This document shows positions 4,274 through 58,637 of a stretch of DNA of 64,000 nucleotides, piece after piece. The number at the start of each line of letters is the position of its first letter. The first letter of the stretch is position 1. The stretch lies in the sequence record PZ445427.1; one strand, written 5' to 3'. A program made the translations under genes and the position numbers. Source of the stretch: a phage. The notes beneath the pieces were generated by a model that searched no databases, was not told the DNA's origin, and saw only the letters and a list, made by a program, of their open reading frames with translations.

Positions 4274-6604
4274 ATGAGCCATCGCATAGAAAAAGTAATC
4301 AAACGTGACGGTACTGTAGAAGACTTTGCTCCTGAAAAACTCAATGGTTGGGCAGTGTATGGCTGCAAAACAGTTGATGTAAGCTGGTCATCCATCACTA
4401 TGGCTGCTCAAAAAACTCTACCTAAAGGTGTTGTAGACTCCGACACCCTAATGGATGCGTTAATTAAAGCCGCTGAAGGTCTTATCAAAGATAACCCAGC
4501 ATATGATGTGCCAGCTAAGGAATTACGTCTTGCGCAGATGCGTAAACGTCTATATGACTCCTTCGAGCCTCCTTCTCTGCGTTTCTTCCACGATCATATG
4601 GTTAGTGTTGGAGCTTGGGAAGACATGAGTGCATGGATTAGCGATGATCAGTTTGATGCTCTGAATCAAGTTATCGATCATGATCGCGATCGTTTATTCA
4701 CCAGTGGTGGACTGAAACAGTTCTTCGACAAGTATTCCCGTCGTAATATTGCAACTGGTGAAATTTATGAAACCCCGCAGTTTGCCTACATGGGCATGGC
4801 AATGGCGATGTTATCTCAACCTAACTGGACAATCCTAGATGCAATCGACCTCTACAATGCAATGTCGCTCCACAAAATCAACGTTCCTACTCCACCTCTC
4901 GTGGGTCTTAGGAGCAGCGACCGCGGTTTTGCTTCTTGTTGTCTTGTTGATAGTACTGATACCCTCGATTCAATCGACACAGCCGAGCATATCGTCTTCA
5001 AAATGGTCGCAGCCAGAGCGGGAATCGGGTATCATCTTGAAAGCCGATCAATTGCTGATCCGGTGCGAAATGGGGCATTCCCGCATTCCGGAAAACTGCC
5101 ATATTATCGACACATTGACCGTTCAGTAAAAGCTAACACTCAGCAAACCCGTGGCGGTTCTGCTACTGTGTCTTATCCATACTTCGATCCTGAAATCATT
5201 CAGTTGATGCAGGTTAAGCAGCAACGTGCTACAGACGAGAATAAAATCGATAAGATGGATTATTCTCTGAGCTTTAACAACCTTCTGTTAAAACGTTACC
5301 TGAAAAACGAAGATATTACGCTAATGTCCTACTTCTACGCACCAGAAGTTCATGAAGCGTTTTATGGTGAAGATGAGGCTAAGTTTGAAGAAATCTACGT
5401 GGCAGCGGAGAAACGTGTGGCATCTCTTACAAAGACCGACCACGAAGGAAAAACAATTCCAGCAGCTCCTAGAATCTCTGCAAAAGAAATCCTAGATACT
5501 TGGTTACGTATCCGTATGGAAACAGGGCGTATGTATGCTCATCACATTGGTGAATCTAACCGTCATGGTAACTTCCTTGACCCGATTCGTATGACCAACC
5601 TTTGTGTTGAAATTACTCAGCCAACCCGTCCATTCCATCACATTACGGAACTGTATAAAACCCAAGATCAGTTAGACGATATGCGTCCAGAAGATATTGG
5701 TGAAGTATCTCTGTGTAACTTAGGTGGTGTTGTACTAGGCCGCATGGAATCTCTGGCTGAATGGGAGAAAACTTGCTACATCCTTCTGAAATTCGTTGAT
5801 ACAATCATCGAGATTCAGGATTACCCATTCCCAACTATGGAATACACGGCTAAGAAACGTCGAAACGTTGGTATTGGCCTGATGAACGCAGCAGGTGCAA
5901 TGGCAGCAGAAGGTTTGGCTTACGAAGGTGTTGAAGCTCGTAACTGGATTCACCGTGAAGCTGAAAAACTGTCTTACTTCCTGCACAAAGCATCTGTACG
6001 TCTGGCTAAAGAACAAGGTGCATGTGACTGGTTTAATCGTACTAAGCCATCCAAAGGAACTCTGGTAATCGACACGTACAAGAAAACTGTTGATGAACTG
6101 GTAACCGTAGGTCTAGAAATGGATTGGGAATCTCTGCGTGCAGATATCCTGAAATACGGTATGCGTAACTCTGTTCTGACTGCTCAGATGCCGGGTGAAA
6201 GTTCCTCTGTACTGCTAGGTGTTACTAACTCTATTGAACCACCTCGTAAGATTGTATCTATCAAGGGTAGTGCAGTGAATAAAGTAATTGCAATTGCTCC
6301 AGGTGCAACCGATTGGGATACATTAATGAGCTATAAACTGGCTTATGATGTAGATCGTATCGAGTGGATCAAATGGGTAGCAACCATGCAGAAATTTTTC
6401 AGTCAGTCTATCAGTACGAATATGTACTATGACTACACCAAGTTTGAGAATGAAATCATTCCTGGTCCAGTAGTAGTTCGTGATTTCATGACTGCTGTTA
6501 AGTACGGTTGGAAAACTTGGTACTACGCTAACTTCAACACTGAAAATGGTGGTGGAGCTGGTGAAGAAGCAGCAGGTTGTGCATCCGGTGGTTGTAACCT
6601 ATAA
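4274..6604 (+). CDS. nrdA: ribonucleoside-diphosphate reductase large subunit (class Ia)
   Basis: ATP-cone VIKRDG start, C-terminal CxxxxC tail; start taken at ATG 4274 after AAAGGAAA (track ORF starts earlier at 4169). Confidence 0.9.
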   Translation: MSHRIEKVIKRDGTVEDFAPEKLNGWAVYGCKTVDVSWSSITMAAQKTLPKGVVDSDTLMDALIKAAEGLIKDNPAYDVPAKELRLAQMRKRLYDSFEPPSLRFFHDHMVSVGAWEDMSAWISDDQFDALNQVIDHDRDRLFTSGGLKQFFDKYSRRNIATGEIYETPQFAYMGMAMAMLSQPNWTILDAIDLYNAMSLHKINVPTPPLVGLRSSDRGFASCCLVDSTDTLDSIDTAEHIVFKMVAARAGIGYHLESRSIADPVRNGAFPHSGKLPYYRHIDRSVKANTQQTRGGSATVSYPYFDPEIIQLMQVKQQRATDENKIDKMDYSLSFNNLLLKRYLKNEDITLMSYFYAPEVHEAFYGEDEAKFEEIYVAAEKRVASLTKTDHEGKTIPAAPRISAKEILDTWLRIRMETGRMYAHHIGESNRHGNFLDPIRMTNLCVEITQPTRPFHHITELYKTQDQLDDMRPEDIGEVSLCNLGGVVLGRMESLAEWEKTCYILLKFVDTIIEIQDYPFPTMEYTAKKRRNVGIGLMNAAGAMAAEGLAYEGVEARNWIHREAEKLSYFLHKASVRLAKEQGACDWFNRTKPSKGTLVIDTYKKTVDELVTVGLEMDWESLRADILKYGMRNSVLTAQMPGESSSVLLGVTNSIEPPRKIVSIKGSAVNKVIAIAPGATDWDTLMSYKLAYDVDRIEWIKWVATMQKFFSQSISTNMYYDYTKFENEIIPGPVVVRDFMTAVKYGWKTWYYANFNTENGGGAGEEAAGCASGGCNL

Positions 6605-11601: not shown

Positions 11602-11814
11602 ATGCGTAACTTCGTTGCAAAGAATGATTTTAACCGTGCTAGCACTCACAAGTCTGCTAGAGACTACACTCGTCTTTCTAAACATGAGCTTCTAGAAGAA
11701 ATCATGGAAGAAAACTGGGATGTTAGTGAAAATGGAACAGACCTGTTTGAAGAAGAGGAACTTCCTCTGAAAGACCCCAAACAGTGGGAGTCTATTAAAG
11801 AGACAGCTCTTTAA
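11602..11814 (+). CDS. hypothetical acidic protein (70 aa)
   Basis: GGAGA RBS. Confidence 0.5.
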   Translation: MRNFVAKNDFNRASTHKSARDYTRLSKHELLEEIMEENWDVSENGTDLFEEEELPLKDPKQWESIKETAL

Positions 11815-11844
11815 TAGTTTTCTACAACAATAAAGGACATAATT

Positions 11845-23273: not shown

Positions 23274-23309
23274 CTGATATAGCACTGAGCAAGTTCTTTA
23301 AAATTTGAC

Positions 23310-54149: not shown

Positions 54150-54396
54150 TTCTTTGTCTCCCTCGTTAATCGGTGAGTGAATGATATAGATAATTGTTCG
54201 CTAGGGGCAAGAAAAAAGAAAAGGTTTTTTATTTCTTGCTTACTGCCTGTTTTTATGATAACCGCGCGTTTTCTATTTCTAGCTCTCTGTAAGCGTACAC
54301 AAGGCTTTATTATAGTAAGGGGTAATGCTGAAAAACCGCTTAGAACGCGTTTTAGGCCGCTTAAATTTGATTGCGGTTGTTACTGCTACCATTCTA

Positions 54397-54416
54397 CCCT
54401 GTATATTTATACAGTA
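54397..54416. promoter_or_regulatory. LexA (SOS) box-like palindrome (core CTGTATATTTATACAG identical to 50509..50524)
   Basis: ccctgtatatttatacagtagg. Confidence 0.5.
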
Positions 54417-54436
54417 GGATAACCTGTACATAAGTC

Positions 54437-54445
54437 TGTGGATAA
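54437..54445 (-). promoter_or_regulatory. consensus DnaA box (TGTGGATAA)
   Basis: Exact reverse complement of TTATCCACA. Confidence 0.55.
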
Positions 54446-54485
54446 GTCGCCAAAACGTCGCCTATTACGTCAAGTTATTTTGTGC

Positions 54486-54494
54486 TGTGGATAA
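54486..54494 (-). promoter_or_regulatory. consensus DnaA box (TGTGGATAA)
   Basis: Exact reverse complement of TTATCCACA; 8/9 copy at 54770. Confidence 0.55.
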
Positions 54495-54823
54495 CTTTGT
54501 GAATAACCTAAATGATAGTGGTTCTCACTTAGCCGATAGTTTCTTATAGTTATTATTTCTCTTTAATTTATAAATATATTATATAATATGAAATAGTTAG
54601 TTGGCTAATAGGTTTTTAGAGTATTAATAGTCTGCTAACTGTTTCGGCTGTTACAATCCACCAGCGTGATTATCATCCTAGCGATTGTTAGTCTACTAAT
54701 GCTCTGATGCACGTCCAGACTTATTTGTCAATGAAAAATAACAGCAGAAAATACTTTTTTGAAAAATCAAGTGGATAACTCATTAAATTTCATTTTTGCT
54801 TTTTGTATAAGTTATTAACAGGG

Positions 54824-54854
54824 TCTAAAACGCTCTGTAACGCATTCTAAGCGC
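54824..54854 (+). repeat. 31-bp direct repeat copy 2
   Basis: tctaaaacgctctgtaacgcattctaagcgc. Confidence 0.6.
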
Positions 54855-54921
54855 CTCAAAGGAAAAGATAGGCAATCATAAGGGGTACACCGAGAAAACC
54901 TCACCACGAGGATTTTAGATT

Positions 54922-54949
54922 TTGTCAAGTAGGGCAAAGCAAATATAAA
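54922..54949 (+). promoter_or_regulatory. candidate sigma70 promoter TTGTCA-16-TATAAA
   Basis: ttgtca 54922..54927, tataaa 54944..54949. Confidence 0.35.
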
Positions 54950-55180
54950 TGAAAAAATTACTTGCTAAAATGGTTGTTTTGGTGTTATTCGCGCGCCTGT
55001 TTCATTAAATTTAGTGCGCCGCTGGACGTTTGCGGGTAGTGGTTTTCTTTACGTTTCTTTACAAAAATACGCTTGCGCCATTTTCGGGAATAACCTATTA
55101 TTTATCTCGTAGGACGGCAAGACGGAAACGAAAGGCCAGACTACAACGGCGGGGAAGTTTACCGCCATGCTCTTTAAAAA

Positions 55181-55206
55181 CTAGGGAACATCTTAAAGCC
55201 TATCGG
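55181..55206. repeat. 26-bp inverted repeat, left copy (partner 55468..55495)
   Basis: ctagggaacatcttaaagcctatcgg vs reverse complement of ccgataggttttaagatgttccccgtag; flanked by 12-bp direct repeat gctctttaaaaa at 55169 and 55501. Confidence 0.6.
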
Positions 55207-55240
55207 CGGTAAACTTATACATTATAAGGAATCGACGATA

Positions 55241-55459
55241 ATGATCAAATCAAAAAACGCTTTAGTGATTAGTGCAAAACCTGCTAGCCCACTGGATAGC
55301 AGAACAAAAAATTTGTTGACAGTAGCGCAACGATCTGTAAAATACAGATTCAAGCAATACAAGAAAGGCAAGCAACAAGGGCTGGAAATGGTGTGGCGTA
55401 ATATAATGATTGATTTATATAACTCACATCAAATCGAAAAAAGTTTAAAAAACGCTTGA
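55241..55459 (+). CDS. hypothetical basic protein (72 aa) bracketed by inverted repeats
   Basis: Track ORF; lies exactly between the 26-bp IR copies. Confidence 0.45.
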   Translation: MIKSKNALVISAKPASPLDSRTKNLLTVAQRSVKYRFKQYKKGKQQGLEMVWRNIMIDLYNSHQIEKSLKNA

Positions 55460-55484
55460 CACGCTAGCCGATAGGTTTTAAGAT
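55456..55484 (+). promoter_or_regulatory. candidate sigma70 promoter TTGACA-17-TAAGAT
   Basis: ttgaca 55456..55461 overlapping right IR copy. Confidence 0.4.
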
Positions 55485-55495
55485 GTTCCCCGTAG
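55468..55495. repeat. 26-bp inverted repeat, right copy
   Basis: See 55181..55206. Confidence 0.6.
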
Positions 55496-55623
55496 TAACT
55501 GCTCTTTAAAAATTTGGATAACGGTAATGTTTAGGCTAACTCCTAGCGGATTATAATCTAATAGCGTTTCAAAGTATCGAGGCGCTATTGTGGAATAATC
55601 CCCAATAAACCGGAGTATTAAAA

Positions 55624-55875
55624 ATGCAAAACGTTATTACCGCGCCGAAAGTAGGTCAATCTGTATTCATTCCTTTTGTAACTAAAACGGATGAATTAAC
55701 CGGAAAAGCCGAACGTATTAAAGGTGCGGCGCTTGATCCCTTTGATAAGATTGAAGCGGTCTATGCGGAAACGGAACGCAGTAACCACGGCAAGCCTATT
55801 TATAACGTCCGTGTTAAATCTGGCGACGTTGTAAAAATCATTCAGAAAGATGATAAATGGCAAGCTATCGCATAA
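55624..55875 (+). CDS. hypothetical protein (83 aa)
   Basis: GGAGTATTAAAAATG initiation region (motif shared by several genes in this block). Confidence 0.55.
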   Translation: MQNVITAPKVGQSVFIPFVTKTDELTGKAERIKGAALDPFDKIEAVYAETERSNHGKPIYNVRVKSGDVVKIIQKDDKWQAIA

Positions 55876-56161
55876 ATTAATGCGCCTTACATATCATGCT
55901 TAGTTAGGCAATAAAGATAACTCGAAATATTCCTAGCGTGAACGGAATAATAAACAGCGTATAAATACAATGTTGCCTTATTAATTCTCTGGCAAGCCGG
56001 ATAAGGTGAGAATATAAATATATTCGGGAATTAATAAACCGCTTGAAACTGGAAATAAAAATAAAATGTTTCCGTTATATATTCTAGCTAATAGAATATA
56101 TAGCGATTAACATTTAGTTAATCATAATCCCTTAATTAATAATTGAATGGAGTATTAAATT

Positions 56162-56578
56162 ATGTCTAACGTTAAAACCGAAAAAACCGCAAAATTCTCT
56201 TGGAACGAAGAAAACACCGAAAAGGCTGTTTCTATGTATTCTGAAATGGTCGCTAAAAGCGGAATTGAATTTGCTAACAGTGACGGCCTGAAAGAAATTG
56301 CCGCCGCCGTTGGCGCTGCAAGCCCTGTTTCTGTACGTTCTAAACTGACAAGCGCAAAAGCGTACCAGAAAAGTGATAAACCGCGTAAAGTTGGCGGCGG
56401 GTCTAGTGTCCGTAAAGCTCACTATGTGCGCGTTATGGCTAAACATGCCATTGATGCTGGCGTTATCAAAGACGCTGATGATCTGGCAAGTCTGGAAAGT
56501 GCAAAACTGGAAACGCTGGAAGCCGTAGCGCAATTGTTAGGCGTAGCGGAGGAAGTAAAACAGGCCGCAGGTGAATAA
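56162..56578 (+). CDS. hypothetical protein (138 aa), possible A2-like pre-early DNA-binding protein
   Basis: GGAGTATTAAATTATG; position immediately upstream of the A1-like gene; identity is positional inference only. Confidence 0.35.
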   Translation: MSNVKTEKTAKFSWNEENTEKAVSMYSEMVAKSGIEFANSDGLKEIAAAVGAASPVSVRSKLTSAKAYQKSDKPRKVGGGSSVRKAHYVRVMAKHAIDAGVIKDADDLASLESAKLETLEAVAQLLGVAEEVKQAAGE

Positions 56579-56972: not shown

Positions 56973-58637
56973 ATGAATATTTCCGCAGAAAAACAAGCTC
57001 AAATTCTGAAAATGGCCGCAGATTTTAACTTCTACGGTAAGCGTTTACGCGCTACTAAATTGGAAGTTTGCGACGATATTTCAAAAGCTGTTTATGATAC
57101 GCCGAAACATTCGACCGCAATTTGTGACTGGTTGGAAGCAAATAAGCCAGCGAAACCGAAAGCGGCAAAAGCTGAAAAGGCGATTAAAAATGATGATCGC
57201 CCCGAAGCGGCGGGGATTGTTTCTAGTACCGTCGAACAATGGGAAGTTAAATCCGGTCGCCGTTTTATTCTAACGTCGATTCAAAATAATACTTTCCCGC
57301 ATAAAAACTTTTTAGCAAGTCTGGAAAAATTCGCTGAATATTGCGGCGCTGAATTGCTGGTTAGTAAATTCATTTATAATAAAAATGGATTCCAGAATGG
57401 GGAAGGTAGCGACGGCATCAAATACGATCCCGCATTTAATAAATATATTTGCGAGAAAAACGTATTTTTAAATAATCGCCGCTTTGCTTTCATGGCTGAA
57501 ATTAACGTTTTACCAACGGCAGATTATCCGCTTTCAGGATTCGCAGAAACCGCCACGGCTTTAAATATTGAAGGGCTGGCAATCGGTCACGCTAAAATCA
57601 CCGCTGAAAGTGTACCAGCGTTAAAAGGTGAAGTAGTGCGCCGTATGTATTCAACCGGAACGGCGACACTAAAAAACTATATCCAGCAAAAGGCGGGACA
57701 AAAAGCCGAGGCTTTACATAATTTCGGCGCTTTGCTGGTAGAGTTTGACGACGACGGAGAATTTTATTGCCGCCAGCTTGAAACAATGGACGAAAGCGGA
57801 ATGTTCTACGATTTGAACGTGTGCGCTATCGCTACCGGATGTTATGAAACATCGGGCCATGTTCTAGGCTTGCAATATGGCGATATTCACGCCGAAAAAT
57901 TAGATGATGAATGCGCCGTTGCTTCATGGGCTAGTGAAAACAGCTTGCTTGATATTCTCAAGCCTAAATATCAATTTATTCATGATGTGCATGATTTTAC
58001 ATCGCGTAACCATCACAACCGCGCTAGTGGTGTATTCCTTGCTAAACAGTACGCCGCCGGACGTGATAAAGTTATTGATGATCTTATCGATACTGGACGC
58101 GTTTTAGAGTCTATGGAGCGTGATTTCTCTCAAACAATCATTGTGGAATCCAACCATGATTTAGCTCTTTCACGCTGGCTAGATGATCGTAACGCAAACA
58201 TTAAAGACGATCCCGCAAACGCGGAATTGTATCACCGTCTAAACGCTGCGATTTACGCCGCTATTGCTGAAAAGGATGATACCTTTAACGTTCTAGATTA
58301 CGCCTTGCGTAGTGTCGCAGGTTGCGAATTTAACGCTATTTTCCTGACGACAGACCAATCATTTAAAATCGCTGGCATTGAATGCGGCGTACACGGTCAC
58401 AATGGCATTAACGGCAGTCGGGGCAATCCTAAGCAGTTTAAAAAGTTGGGACGCCTTAACACTGGTCATACTCATACGGCTAGCATTTACGGCGGCGTTT
58501 ATACCGCTGGCGTGGCGGGGTCGCTTGATATGGGCTACAACGTGGGCGCGTCAAGCTGGACGCAAACGCATTTAATTACCTATGCAAACGGGCAACGTAC
58601 TTTGATTGATTTCAAAAACGGTAAATTCTTTGCATAA
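56973..58637 (+). CDS. A1: calcineurin-like metallophosphoesterase nuclease, T5 A1-like pre-early protein
   Basis: 554 aa; full set of metallophosphoesterase motifs (GDIH, IHDVHD, ESNHD, GVHGHNG, TGHTHT); TAGGAG RBS; assignment to T5 A1 rests on size, motif set and gene context. Confidence 0.5.
   Translation: MNISAEKQAQILKMAADFNFYGKRLRATKLEVCDDISKAVYDTPKHSTAICDWLEANKPAKPKAAKAEKAIKNDDRPEAAGIVSSTVEQWEVKSGRRFILTSIQNNTFPHKNFLASLEKFAEYCGAELLVSKFIYNKNGFQNGEGSDGIKYDPAFNKYICEKNVFLNNRRFAFMAEINVLPTADYPLSGFAETATALNIEGLAIGHAKITAESVPALKGEVVRRMYSTGTATLKNYIQQKAGQKAEALHNFGALLVEFDDDGEFYCRQLETMDESGMFYDLNVCAIATGCYETSGHVLGLQYGDIHAEKLDDECAVASWASENSLLDILKPKYQFIHDVHDFTSRNHHNRASGVFLAKQYAAGRDKVIDDLIDTGRVLESMERDFSQTIIVESNHDLALSRWLDDRNANIKDDPANAELYHRLNAAIYAAIAEKDDTFNVLDYALRSVAGCEFNAIFLTTDQSFKIAGIECGVHGHNGINGSRGNPKQFKKLGRLNTGHTHTASIYGGVYTAGVAGSLDMGYNVGASSWTQTHLITYANGQRTLIDFKNGKFFA

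What the first reader, a model, noticed from the sequence alone, without database searches (positions are those of the whole stretch)
55169..55512. Small ORF precisely bracketed by 26-bp inverted repeats and 12-bp direct repeats
ctagggaacatcttaaagcctatcgg (55181..55206) and its near-exact reverse complement (55468..55495) enclose the 72-aa ORF 55241..55459; a 12-bp direct repeat gctctttaaaaa lies outside both (55169..55180, 55501..55512). The architecture resembles a miniature insertion (terminal inverted repeats plus duplication) or a long hairpin insulating one gene. The right repeat also overlaps a candidate TTGACA promoter.
Basis: seen in the sequence. Interest (0 to 1): 0.55.

Follow-up and report, generated by a model that had tools for sequence, protein, structure and literature searches.

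The report
rRNA-operon-like signals bracket phage hdi gene
The small gene is the T5-type host-division inhibitor hdi, and the repeats around it are not insertion scars: they look like copies of the host's ribosomal-RNA antitermination signal (boxA) next to a conserved long-range RNA helix, which suggests that T5-like phages borrow the cell's rRNA transcription machinery for their first genes.

Summary
A 24-nt inverted repeat (55184-55207 / 55467-55490, one G·U mismatch) and a 13-nt direct repeat TGCTCTTTAAAAA (55168-55180 / 55500-55512) bracket the ORF 55241-55459.

The window is a T5-like phage (Epseptimavirus), and the locus heads the leftward pre-early operon (hdi, T5.007, A2, A1, dmp). The ORF is the homologue of T5.008/Hdi, a published FtsZ inhibitor.

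- **Direct repeat:** both copies match the published boxA consensus GYTCTTTAANA, the NusB/NusE site of rrn operons. BoxA follows pre-early promoters in every Demerecviridae lineage I examined.
- **Inverted repeat:** it is present in all 48 distinct relatives. Six lineages have unrelated arm sequences but keep complementarity, including compensatory substitutions and one compensated insertion.
- **Right arm:** it always covers the spacer and -10 of a consensus sigma-70 promoter, so only read-through transcripts can form the helix.
- **Cargo:** the genes between the arms vary among lineages.

The insertion reading (terminal repeats plus target duplication) is rejected. The "long hairpin around one gene" reading is broadly right.

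My best model is an rrn-like module: boxA-mediated Nus antitermination plus a leader-trailer helix that is probably cut by RNase III. This is inferred from sequence and has not been tested. Davison had already named the inverted repeat (IRA/IRA'). I found no paper describing boxA in T5.

The parts
55073..55101 (+). Putative upstream sigma-70 promoter (TTGCGC, 17-nt spacer, TATTAT). It would give transcripts that start near 55108 and carry the left boxA, the left arm and hdi.
   Evidence: The hexamers and spacing are conserved in T5, Klebsiella, Keyvirus and Yersinia phage relatives while the spacer sequence varies. The -35 is weak (3 of 6), so the scan did not list it. This part is inferred.
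55148..55166 (+). Small GC hairpin (GGCGG, 9-nt loop, CCGCC) one base upstream of the left boxA. It is arranged like the rrn boxB hairpin.
   Evidence: It is predicted in the MFE and centroid folds. The E. coli rrn leader has GCCGC...GCGGC, then AC, then TGCTCTTTAACAA. Equivalent hairpins occur in T5, Keyvirus-type L059, KEY (L066) and UTK0009 (L060); phiR2-01 (L067) has a degenerate version.
55168..55180 (+). Left direct-repeat copy, read as boxA-L (TGCTCTTTAAAAA). It is the putative NusB/NusE binding site on transcripts from upstream promoters.
   Evidence: Positions 55169-55179 match the consensus GYTCTTTAANA exactly. The motif is invariant in 41 aligned relatives and is present in every lineage just 5' of the left arm.
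55184..55207 (+). Left arm of the long-range helix (5' or 'leader' strand).
   Evidence: Covariation with the right arm is shown.
55241..55459 (+). hdi (T5.008 homologue, 72 aa), a host-division (FtsZ) inhibitor. The Shine-Dalgarno sequence AAGGAA is at 55226-55231.
   Evidence: It is 68% identical to T5.008 over 60 aa, E = 1e-32, and matches phrog_4718 at E = 4e-38. The function of T5.008 is taken from PMC10714956.
55316..55343 (+). Internal promoter (TTGACA, 16-nt spacer, TAAAAT) inside hdi. It is the homologue of T5 P_H22.
   Evidence: It matches 11 of 12 consensus positions. T5 annotates P-H22 at 4799-4873 inside T5.008. The sequence is nearly invariant in T5-type hdi alleles.
55456..55484 (+). 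Sigma-70 promoter (TTGACA, 17-nt spacer, TAAGAT) with an expected start near 55491. It is tentatively the P_D/E20 homologue. The hdi stop codon lies inside its -35 hexamer.
   Evidence: The hexamers are invariant in 41 relatives. Every other lineage has the same layout with its own -10 (CATAAT, TATTAT, TATGAT, TACTAT, TATAAT). The preprint 10.64898/2026.04.02.716235 says P_D/E20 partially overlaps hdi.
55467..55490 (+). Right arm of the long-range helix (3' or 'trailer' strand). It coincides with the spacer, the -10 and the first bases before the start of the promoter above.
55500..55512 (+). Right direct-repeat copy, read as boxA-R (TGCTCTTTAAAAA). It lies at about +10 on transcripts from the 55456-55484 promoter.
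   Evidence: Positions 55501-55511 match the consensus exactly. A boxA or boxA-like core lies 102-124 nt upstream of the T5.007 start codon in 10 of the 13 loci listed (-191 in My1; not found in L009 or L039). In several lineages it reads as the exact rrn form CGCTCTTTAACAATTTGG.
55624..55875 (+). T5.007 homologue (83 aa), the next gene of the operon. A2, the small ORF annotated 'A1 precursor' and A1 (56973-58637) follow it.
   Evidence: It matches phrog_3747.

Best explanation
The locus is the regulatory head of the leftward pre-early (first-step-transfer) operon of a T5-like phage. It is built like the leader of a bacterial rRNA operon.

**BoxA elements.** Each sigma-70 promoter is followed on the transcript by a boxA element, which is the 'direct repeat'. 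BoxA recruits host NusB/NusE and, with NusA, NusG and SuhB, turns RNA polymerase into a fast, Rho-resistant antitermination complex.

**Helix.** The left boxA sits 3 nt upstream of a 24-nt sequence that is complementary to the promoter core 260 nt downstream. Transcripts from upstream promoters are the only ones that can encode Hdi. They therefore fold into a 24-28 bp leader-trailer helix that loops out the hdi cassette.

**Processing.** By analogy with 16S and 23S precursors, the Nus complex tethered to boxA would hold the 5' arm at the RNA exit channel, so the helix forms as soon as the 3' arm emerges. RNase III would then cut the helix. This would separate the mRNA of the toxic division inhibitor from the A2/A1 mRNA. 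It would also leave a downstream RNA whose 5' end nearly coincides with the primary start of the internal promoter. The second boxA, a few bases further on, reloads the Nus factors, as the spacer boxA does in rrn operons.

**Shown here:** the identity of the gene, the boxA consensus matches and their family-wide conservation, the conservation and covariation of the helix, and its overlap with a conserved promoter.

**Inferred:** Nus factor binding, antitermination, helix formation in vivo and RNase III cleavage.
For: **Context.** The window is an Epseptimavirus-like T5 relative, and the locus heads the hdi, T5.007, A2, A1, dmp operon inside the terminal repeat. The ORF is Hdi.

**BoxA.**
- Both repeat copies match GYTCTTTAANA, the gamma-proteobacterial boxA consensus of Baniulyte et al. 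2017. The window has 4 hits against 0.69 expected; the other two look like chance.
- The E. coli rrn leader reads hairpin, AC, TGCTCTTTAACAATTT about 130 nt upstream of 16S. The phage reads hairpin, A, TGCTCTTTAAAAA.
- All copies in the phage leaders are on the sense strand of their own operon, downstream of promoters. This holds in T5, Keyvirus, Klebsiella, Yersinia, Pectobacterium My1 (3 copies), Proteus Stubb (4-5 copies plus one facing the divergent operon) and Vibrio T5-like phages. Many copies are the exact rrn form CGCTCTTTAACAATTTGG.

**Helix.**
- It is present in 48 of 48 distinct loci.
- In 41 T5/Epseptimavirus sequences, 99.7% of 984 cells are standard pairs. Three pairs changed on both sides. 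When the 3' partner is slid by 1-3 columns, pairing falls to 28-43%.
- L015 has a compensated 1-nt insertion in both arms.
- Six lineages have unrelated arm sequences. Cognate duplexes are -34 to -47 kcal/mol, against a mean of -12.6 (best -26.9) for unrelated non-cognate pairs.
- One-sided changes give G·U on the sense strand at 7 positions (46 cells). They give A·C at 3 positions, each in a single sequence.
- The MFE and centroid folds of 55108-55530 contain the helix; z = -6.06.

Against: - There are no experimental data for this phage group. I found no paper linking T5 to boxA, Nus factors, Rho or RNase III.
- The helix encloses protein-coding genes, not a structural RNA, so translating ribosomes could melt it.
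- The excess of G·U over A·C is not significant when counted as events (7 against 3 positions).
- In T5-type phages the right boxA is displaced by about 95 nt and is degenerate (GTTCTTTAAAT, 10 of 11 positions). It was not found at all in L009 or L039. In these phages the left boxA is itself paired with an 'anti-boxA' in an extended 39-nt helix, which complicates a simple reload model.
- Local folds pair parts of both boxA copies weakly.
- The upstream promoter that would feed the left boxA is only predicted.
- Why the 3' arm always coincides with the -10 region is explained only by compactness, and a role at the DNA level is not excluded.
Confidence: 0.5

Rival explanations
1. The helix is an RNA element that acts on hdi alone, without coupling to Nus factors or RNase III. 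A long-range stem ties together the 5' and 3' ends of the hdi mRNA segment. It could stabilise that segment against exonucleases or RNase E, or throttle translation of a toxic protein. The boxA-like repeats would act separately as plain antiterminators, or would be conserved for another reason.
For: The helix ends about 20 nt before the Shine-Dalgarno sequence and begins 8 nt after the stop codon. Hdi is toxic and the locus is hard to clone. Covariation and folding support an RNA helix but say nothing about what acts on it.
Against: This does not explain why boxA sits immediately 5' of the left arm and shortly 3' of the right arm in unrelated lineages. The cargo differs between lineages, and some lack hdi altogether, so the helix is not tied to Hdi itself.
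Confidence: 0.2
2. The repeat works at the DNA level. The left arm is an inverted copy of the promoter core and acts as a second binding site (operator or decoy) for RNA polymerase/sigma or for a pre-early protein such as A1 or A2. This could loop or shut off the strong pre-early promoters.
For: In every lineage the right arm coincides with the spacer, the -10 and the start of a consensus promoter. A1 is reported to dampen pre-early promoters and A2 binds DNA.
Against: The arm sequences are completely different in six lineages, whereas A1 and A2 are conserved. Two sites for one protein need to stay similar to a consensus, but they do not need compensated insertions or G·U-type asymmetry. The left arm has no -35 at the right spacing on the opposite strand (read directly).
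Confidence: 0.15
3. The unit is a mobile or recombining cassette. It could be a miniature transposable element with terminal inverted repeats and a target-site duplication, an invertible promoter segment, or a cassette exchanged by recombination at the repeats.
For: It has the formal look of terminal inverted repeats plus a direct repeat. The genes between the arms differ among relatives: hdi only; an extra ORF plus hdi; the extra ORF only; or other ORFs. A promoter lies between the arms.
Against: There was no empty site in 48 distinct loci and no other copy in the window. The direct repeat does not abut the arms and is conserved as a motif across the family. The cargo is never found inverted relative to T5.007. 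Exchange of cargo is explained by ordinary homologous recombination in the conserved flanks.
Confidence: 0.04

Closest known systems
E. coli rrn operon leader and spacer: boxB-boxA-boxC plus the RNase III-cleaved leader-trailer helices around 16S and 23S rRNA
   Same: - A GC hairpin is followed after 1-2 nt by TGCTCTTTAA(C/A)AA.
- BoxA lies a few bases 5' of the upstream strand of a long-range helix of about 24-30 bp.
- A second boxA follows the downstream strand.
- The helix strands covary while the enclosed unit is conserved or exchanged.
   Different: - The enclosed unit is 260-640 nt of translated mRNA (one or two small genes), not rRNA.
- The 3' strand doubles as the core of an internal promoter.
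- No GU-rich boxC is evident.
- Nus binding and RNase III cleavage are untested here.
Phage lambda nutL with the RNase III site in the N leader (from general knowledge, not checked here)
   Same: A phage early transcript carries boxA close to the promoter, followed by an RNase III-sensitive duplex upstream of the first gene. Host Nus factors are used for antitermination.
   Different: - Lambda has the order boxA-boxB and needs the phage N protein; here the order is hairpin-boxA, as in rrn operons, and no N-like protein is known.
- The lambda structure is a local hairpin, not a helix spanning a gene.
- T5-like phages are virulent, not lambdoid.
Other cellular boxA targets: the suhB 5' UTR and CRISPR array leaders (PMC5725501, PMC7665894)
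   Same: They have the same consensus motif, a short distance downstream of a promoter, protecting poorly translated RNA from Rho.
   Different: Those cases have a single boxA and no associated long-range helix. They are chromosomal, not phage.
IRA/IRA' of 'Repeat Region 1' in the T5 left terminal repeat (Davison, bioRxiv 10.1101/866236)
   Same: This is almost certainly the same inverted repeat. Repeat Region 1 is given as T5 4682-5310, and the T5 arms lie at about 4684-4707 and 4951-4974. Davison notes that it is conserved among T5-like phages.
   Different: Davison treats the region as untranslated, assigns no function, and dismisses it as a candidate for the injection stop signal. BoxA, the promoter overlap and covariation are not discussed in the text I could read.
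Miniature inverted-repeat transposable elements and invertible promoters
   Same: Inverted repeats flank a short segment. A direct repeat lies outside them and a promoter lies inside.
   Different: There is no copy-number, presence/absence or orientation polymorphism. The direct repeat is not adjacent to the arms and is a conserved motif.

Membership tests
boxA (NusB/NusE-binding antitermination element) | Sequence matches the gamma-proteobacterial consensus GYTCTTTAANA | tested here: met
   Both copies (55169-55179 and 55501-55511) match exactly. Relatives carry GCTCTTTAACAA, the rrn form.
boxA (NusB/NusE-binding antitermination element) | Lies on the sense strand of a transcribed region, downstream of a promoter | tested here: met
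   The right copy is at about +10 of the TTGACA-17-TAAGAT promoter. The left copy is about 60 nt downstream of a predicted promoter and upstream of the expressed hdi gene. In relatives the sense-strand copies that were read in context each follow a consensus promoter (Stubb four copies, Vibrio L070 and L071). The copies listed in 13 enterobacterial loci are all sense-strand; the one antisense core hit in L009 (-779) was not examined, and the antisense copy in Stubb faces the divergent operon. The promoters are predicted by sequence; two T5 promoters are reported as experimentally characterised.
boxA (NusB/NusE-binding antitermination element) | Conserved in relatives beyond the level of its flanks | tested here: met
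   The motif is invariant in 41 aligned sequences. It is retained in lineages whose neighbouring arm sequences are unrelated.
boxA (NusB/NusE-binding antitermination element) | Binds NusB/NusE and confers Nus-dependent antitermination or Rho resistance | not testable with these tools
   This needs EMSA, ChIP, reporter assays or phage boxA mutants.
rrn-type leader-trailer helix (RNase III processing stem) | Long-range complementary sequences flank a unit and are kept by covariation | tested here: met
   The fold contains the helix.
rrn-type leader-trailer helix (RNase III processing stem) | BoxA lies just upstream of the 5' strand, and another boxA follows the 3' strand | tested here: met
   In the window the gaps are 3 nt and 9 nt. 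The layout is the same in Keyvirus, Klebsiella, My1 unit 1, Stubb and phiR2-01. The right boxA is displaced in T5-type phages and in My1 unit 2.
rrn-type leader-trailer helix (RNase III processing stem) | Cleaved by RNase III | not testable with these tools
   An uninterrupted 24 bp helix is long enough for RNase III (general knowledge), but cleavage is only inferred.
rrn-type leader-trailer helix (RNase III processing stem) | Encloses a structural RNA (rRNA) | tested here: not met
   It encloses protein-coding genes (hdi and others). Rfam finds no RNA family in 54300-56200. The locus therefore works like this family but is not a member of it.
Miniature transposable element (terminal inverted repeats plus target-site duplication) | The direct repeat directly abuts the inverted repeats and differs between insertions | tested here: not met
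   There are 3 nt and 9 nt between repeat and arm. The repeat is the same conserved motif in all lineages and also occurs without arms in Vibrio phages.
Miniature transposable element (terminal inverted repeats plus target-site duplication) | Multiple copies and/or presence-absence polymorphism with empty sites | tested here: not met
   There are only two arm matches in the window. The unit is present in 48 of 48 distinct loci. The rest of this phage's genome was not available.
Invertible promoter segment | Both orientations of the segment are observed, and a site-specific recombinase is present | tested here: not met
   The cargo ORFs are always in the same orientation as T5.007. No recombinase is annotated in the neighbourhood. 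Read-level data were not available.
Hdi (T5.008) host division inhibitor | Sequence homology to T5.008 at the syntenic position | tested here: met
   It is 68% identical, E = 1e-32, at the same position upstream of T5.007. FtsZ inhibition by this particular protein was not tested.

The most novel reading that the evidence does not exclude
T5-like phages (Demerecviridae) hijack the host's complete rRNA antitermination complex. They would use it not only for speed and Rho resistance during the short first-step-transfer phase, but also for its RNA-looping chaperone activity. That activity would fold and excise, co-transcriptionally with RNase III, an exchangeable cassette of host-takeover genes from the A2/A1 messenger. 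This would be the first rrn-style boxA plus leader-trailer-helix architecture found around protein-coding genes, and the first in a virulent phage that needs no phage-encoded N-like factor.
Probability: 0.3. Interest if true: 0.8.

Novelty: new variant of a known kind. Interest (0 to 1): 0.6.

Why it matters
T5 pre-early expression has been studied for decades, but how a few very strong promoters deliver A1 and A2 within minutes from only 8% of the genome is not understood.

If the repeats are functional boxA elements, host Nus factors, SuhB and Rho become testable determinants of T5-like infection and of two-step DNA transfer. That is relevant to phage therapy, because many Salmonella, E. coli and Klebsiella therapeutic candidates are T5-like.

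It would also extend the short list of boxA targets (rrn operons, lambdoid nut sites, suhB, CRISPR arrays) to a family of virulent phages. It would give a compact natural system, with a 260-nt loop instead of 1.5 kb, for studying how the antitermination complex helps distant RNA segments pair and be processed.

It also explains a conserved repeat (IRA/IRA') that has been noted but left without a function. Finally, it warns annotators that small ORFs called across the left boxA and arm, such as T5.009, are probably spurious.

Tried and rejected
- **Rfam:** scanning 54300-56200 at E ≤ 1 gave nothing.
- **Further copies:** I found no other copy of the arm in the window. Two other boxA-consensus hits exist. 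One (11806) spans the stop codon of an ORF. The other (23293) sits in the loop of a hairpin between tRNA genes. Both fit the chance expectation of about 0.7.
- **Mobile element and invertible segment:** both rejected (see membership tests).
- **Left arm as a divergent promoter:** rejected. No -35 lies at a workable spacing on the opposite strand in the window, T5 or Keyvirus-type sequences.
- **Helix plus the boxA U-run as an intrinsic terminator:** rejected, because the distance from helix to U-run varies from 2 to 14 nt or more between lineages.
- **Strand asymmetry (G·U against A·C):** suggestive, but not significant by event count.
- **T5.007 homologues outside the pre-early region:** those in Vibrio phages and in a Stephanstirmvirinae phage lie in other contexts and were not informative. 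A1-anchored loci were used instead.
- **Literature:** Davison's 2015 review could not be retrieved, so equating the repeat with IRA/IRA' rests on coordinates given in the 2020 preprint.
- **Promoter recollection:** my first recollection of the P_D/E20 sequence turned out to belong to another phage promoter and was dropped. NC_005859 annotates 'P-D/E 20' as 4338-4664, which excludes the TTGACA/TAAGAT hexamers at 4718-4690. Equating the two is therefore tentative.
- **BoxA accessibility:** local folds were equivocal.
Full report
The region reads hairpin, TGCTCTTTAAAAA (55168-55180), CTA, GGGAACATCTTAAAGCCTATCGGC (55184-55207), Shine-Dalgarno, ORF 55241-55459, GCCGATAGGTTTTAAGATGTTCCC (55467-55490), 9 nt, TGCTCTTTAAAAA (55500-55512). 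The arms are 24 nt with one mismatch, and that mismatch is a G·U on the + strand. With up to three mismatches the arm occurs nowhere else in the 64 kb window, and none of 100 shuffles produced a match. The exact 13-mer direct repeat occurs only at these two places. TTGACA (55456-55461), a 17-nt spacer and TAAGAT (55479-55484) overlap the right arm. The ORF's TGA stop codon lies inside the TTGACA hexamer.

**2. Context.** The window carries 29 tRNA genes. The region is 96-98% identical to many Salmonella and Escherichia T5-like phages of the genus Epseptimavirus. In annotated relatives it lies inside the terminal repeat, which is the first-step-transfer or pre-early DNA. There it heads the operon small ORF, T5.007, A2, the small ORF annotated 'A1 precursor', A1, dmp, divergent from a second pre-early operon.
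- The ORF is 68% identical to T5.008.
- T5.008 is Hdi, an inhibitor of FtsZ ring formation. It is toxic to E. coli, dispensable for the phage, and gives a competitive advantage (PMC10714956; bioRxiv 10.64898/2026.04.02.716235).
- T5 annotates promoter P-H22 inside T5.008. The window keeps it (TTGACA, 16-nt spacer, TAAAAT, 55316-55343).
- The 2026 preprint states that P_H22 and P_D/E20 are experimentally characterised strong promoters that overlap hdi fully and partially, and that they make the locus unclonable. The TTGACA-17-TAAGAT promoter is the only consensus-grade promoter that partly overlaps hdi, so I equate it tentatively with P_D/E20. NC_005859, however, places its 'P-D/E 20' feature at 4338-4664, just downstream of these hexamers.

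**3. The inverted repeat is conserved and covaries.** I collected relatives from IMG/VR, metagenomes and GenBank phages.
- All 48 distinct loci with enough upstream sequence have the repeat at the same place.
- In a 41-sequence alignment of the T5/Epseptimavirus group, 99.7% of 984 cells of the 24-pair helix are standard pairs. When the 3' partner is slid by 1-3 columns, only 28-43% pair.
- Three pairs changed on both sides: A-U to U-A, and C-G to U-A at two positions, one of them (cols 28/503) through a widespread U·G intermediate.
- One phage (L015) has an extra A in the left arm matched by an extra T in the right arm.
- One-sided changes give G·U on the sense strand at seven positions (46 cells, some at high frequency). 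They give A·C at three positions, each in a single sequence. This leans towards an RNA helix on the sense strand but is not significant as an event count.
- Six lineages have unrelated arm sequences: T5/Epseptimavirus, Keyvirus (KEY, AAS21 and a metagenome contig), Klebsiella Sugarland-type, Pectobacterium My1 (two tandem units) and Proteus Stubb. Cognate arms form duplexes of -34 to -47 kcal/mol. Unrelated non-cognate pairs average -12.6 kcal/mol, with the best at -26.9.
- Folding the predicted read-through RNA (55108-55530) puts the long-range helix in both the MFE and centroid structures; z = -6.06.

**4. The right arm is always a promoter core.** In every lineage a TTGACA or TTGCAA hexamer lies 4-10 nt upstream of the right arm. 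The arm contains that lineage's own -10 (TAAGAT, CATAAT, TATTAT, TATGAT, TACTAT or TATAAT) at a spacing of 17-18 nt. Transcripts that start at this promoter therefore begin at or near the 3' end of the arm and cannot form the helix. Only transcripts from further upstream can. These are the only ones that can encode the enclosed genes, because no promoter lies between the left arm and the start codon.

**5. The direct repeat is boxA.**
- Both copies match GYTCTTTAANA, the consensus that Baniulyte et al. derived for gamma-proteobacterial boxA, the NusB/NusE binding site (PMC5725501).
- I checked my recollection of the rrn leader against E. coli genomes. The 47-mer containing TGCTCTTTAACAATTT occurs a median of seven times per genome. 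It lies about 130 nt upstream of 16S rRNA and is preceded by a GC hairpin and two bases.
- The phage has a GGCGG...CCGCC hairpin one base before the left copy.
- In relatives many copies read CGCTCTTTAACAATTTGG, the exact rrn form.
- A boxA or boxA-like core lies 102-124 nt upstream of the T5.007 start codon in 10 of the 13 loci listed. It is at -191 in My1 and was not found in L009 or L039. In T5 itself it is degenerate (GTTCTTTAAAT) and separated from the arm by a roughly 95-nt insertion.
- My1 has three copies for its two units. Stubb has four or five, four of which sit about 11-20 nt downstream of the -10 hexamer of a consensus promoter (sequences), plus one facing the divergent operon. 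Vibrio T5-like phages have a single perfect copy behind a consensus promoter upstream of A2.
- The repeat is therefore a functional motif placed behind each promoter, not a duplication made by an insertion.

**6. The cargo varies but the frame does not.** Between the arms lie hdi alone (window, T5), an unrelated small ORF plus hdi (L015, L035, UTK0009, Klebsiella), that ORF alone (DT571/2), or other ORFs (Keyvirus, My1 unit 1, Stubb). The DT571/2 case agrees with Davison's note that DT57C lacks T5p008. The orientation is always the same. This fits gene exchange by ordinary recombination within a conserved regulatory frame.

**7. Mechanism.** The arrangement is hairpin, boxA, 5' strand, unit, 3' strand, boxA. 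This is the arrangement of rrn operons. [quoted passage not shown]
- The leader-trailer helices are cleaved by RNase III (PMC10250234).
- The Nus/SuhB complex tethers boxA RNA to the elongating polymerase, so that distant strands can pair (PMC4807359).

I therefore propose that the phage uses host Nus factors for fast, Rho-resistant pre-early transcription. I also propose that read-through transcripts form the helix, that RNase III cuts it, and that the second boxA then reloads the complex. Gene identity, motif matches, conservation and covariation are shown. Nus binding, antitermination, helix formation in vivo and cleavage are inferred. Points against the model:
- the enclosed RNA is translated;
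- T5-type phages pair the left boxA with an 'anti-boxA' in a 39-nt extended helix;
- there is no experimental link between T5 and Nus factors or RNase III in the literature I could search.

**8. Rivals.** An hdi-specific stability or translation element fits the helix but not the boxA geometry or the variable cargo. A DNA-level operator or decoy fits the promoter overlap. It does not fit the complete turnover of arm sequence beside conserved A1 and A2, nor the compensated insertion. The transposon and invertible-segment readings fail their defining tests.

**9. Novelty.** Hdi, P_H22 and P_D/E20 are known. The inverted repeat is almost certainly Davison's IRA/IRA' in 'Repeat Region 1' (T5 4682-5310), which he noted as conserved but left without a function (bioRxiv 10.1101/866236). 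I found no report of boxA in T5-like phages or of the rrn-like architecture. Older subscription literature could not be checked. I rate this a new variant of a known kind.

Noticed in passing
window 55316-55343: A near-consensus promoter (TTGACA, 16-nt spacer, TAAAAT; T5 P_H22) lies inside the hdi coding sequence. It is nearly invariant in T5-type hdi alleles. It is absent from a second, divergent hdi allele class (L006, UTK0009 L060, phiR2-01 L067).
   Followed up: partly
window 55155-55166 and 55205-55216: A perfect 12-bp local inverted repeat (AAGTTTACCGCC / GGCGGTAAACTT) encloses the left boxA and most of the left arm in a 38-nt loop. It competes with the small boxB-like hairpin. It is conserved in T5 and Epseptimavirus but not in Keyvirus or UTK0009. 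It could be a co-transcriptional alternative structure.
   Followed up: partly
L025 (T5) about 1993-2323, and most Tequintavirus loci: In T5-type phages the helix extends to 39 nt, so that the left boxA (CGCTCTT) pairs with AAGAGCG/GAGAGCG just after the right arm. The right boxA is displaced by a roughly 95-nt insertion and is degenerate (GTTCTTTAAAT).
   Followed up: partly
L039 (DT571/2), L015, L035, L060, L061, L065, L066: The gene content between the arms varies. A small ORF family (for example MTKRIFKTPEIITVEQAEAVINFCANHD...) occurs with hdi or, in DT571/2, instead of it. Keyvirus phages carry two other ORFs with no evident hdi motif.
   Followed up: partly
L069 (Proteus phage Stubb) 2095, 2501, 2676, 3378, 3466; L070 3741; L071 3355: Stubb has four or five sense-strand boxA copies, four of which follow a consensus promoter, plus one on the other strand just upstream of the first gene of the divergent pre-early operon. 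Vibrio T5-like phages have one perfect CGCTCTTTAACAATTTGG behind a consensus promoter upstream of A2. The window's own divergent operon has no boxA match.
   Followed up: partly
window 55047-55069: A tandem CTTTAC motif (CTTTACGTTTCTTTACAAAAATA) lies just upstream of the predicted TTGCGC/TATTAT promoter. It is conserved in Klebsiella, Keyvirus, Yersinia and Proteus relatives. In Stubb it also occurs as an inverted copy 245 nt away, on the side of the divergent operon. It may be Davison's IRB.
   Followed up: partly
window 54337-54362 and 54828-54853: An imperfect inverted repeat built on CGCTTAGAA / TTCTAAGCG lies in the 800-nt non-coding stretch between the divergent operons. Similar GCTTAGAATCG motifs recur in the Klebsiella, Yersinia and Vibrio relatives. 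They are probably the IRC/IRD repeats that Davison links to the injection stop signal.
   Followed up: no
window 11806-11816 and 23293-23303: There are two further exact matches to the boxA consensus on the + strand. One spans the stop codon of ORF 11602-11814. The other lies in the loop of a 9-bp hairpin between tRNA-Leu and tRNA-Tyr. Both are compatible with chance (0.69 expected).
   Followed up: partly
L004 (T5 NC_005859) 4338-4664 versus 4690-4718: The RefSeq feature 'promoter P-D/E 20' covers a 327-bp stretch that excludes the conserved TTGACA-17-TAAGAT hexamers at the end of hdi. A 2026 preprint, however, describes P_D/E20 as partially overlapping hdi. The annotation and the literature disagree.
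   Followed up: partly
L004 4915-5022 (T5.009); L002 2641-2814 (Sepoy_009); window 55030-55212: Small ORFs annotated across the hairpin, the left boxA and the left arm differ in frame, length and end point between close relatives. They are probably not genes.
   Followed up: no
window 55548-55601: An imperfect hairpin (arms 55548-55566 and 55583-55601) lies in the 5' UTR of T5.007, downstream of the right boxA. It is recovered in the MFE fold of 55491-55640 (z = -3.3). A TATAAT at 55552-55557 lies within it, without a convincing -35.
   Followed up: no
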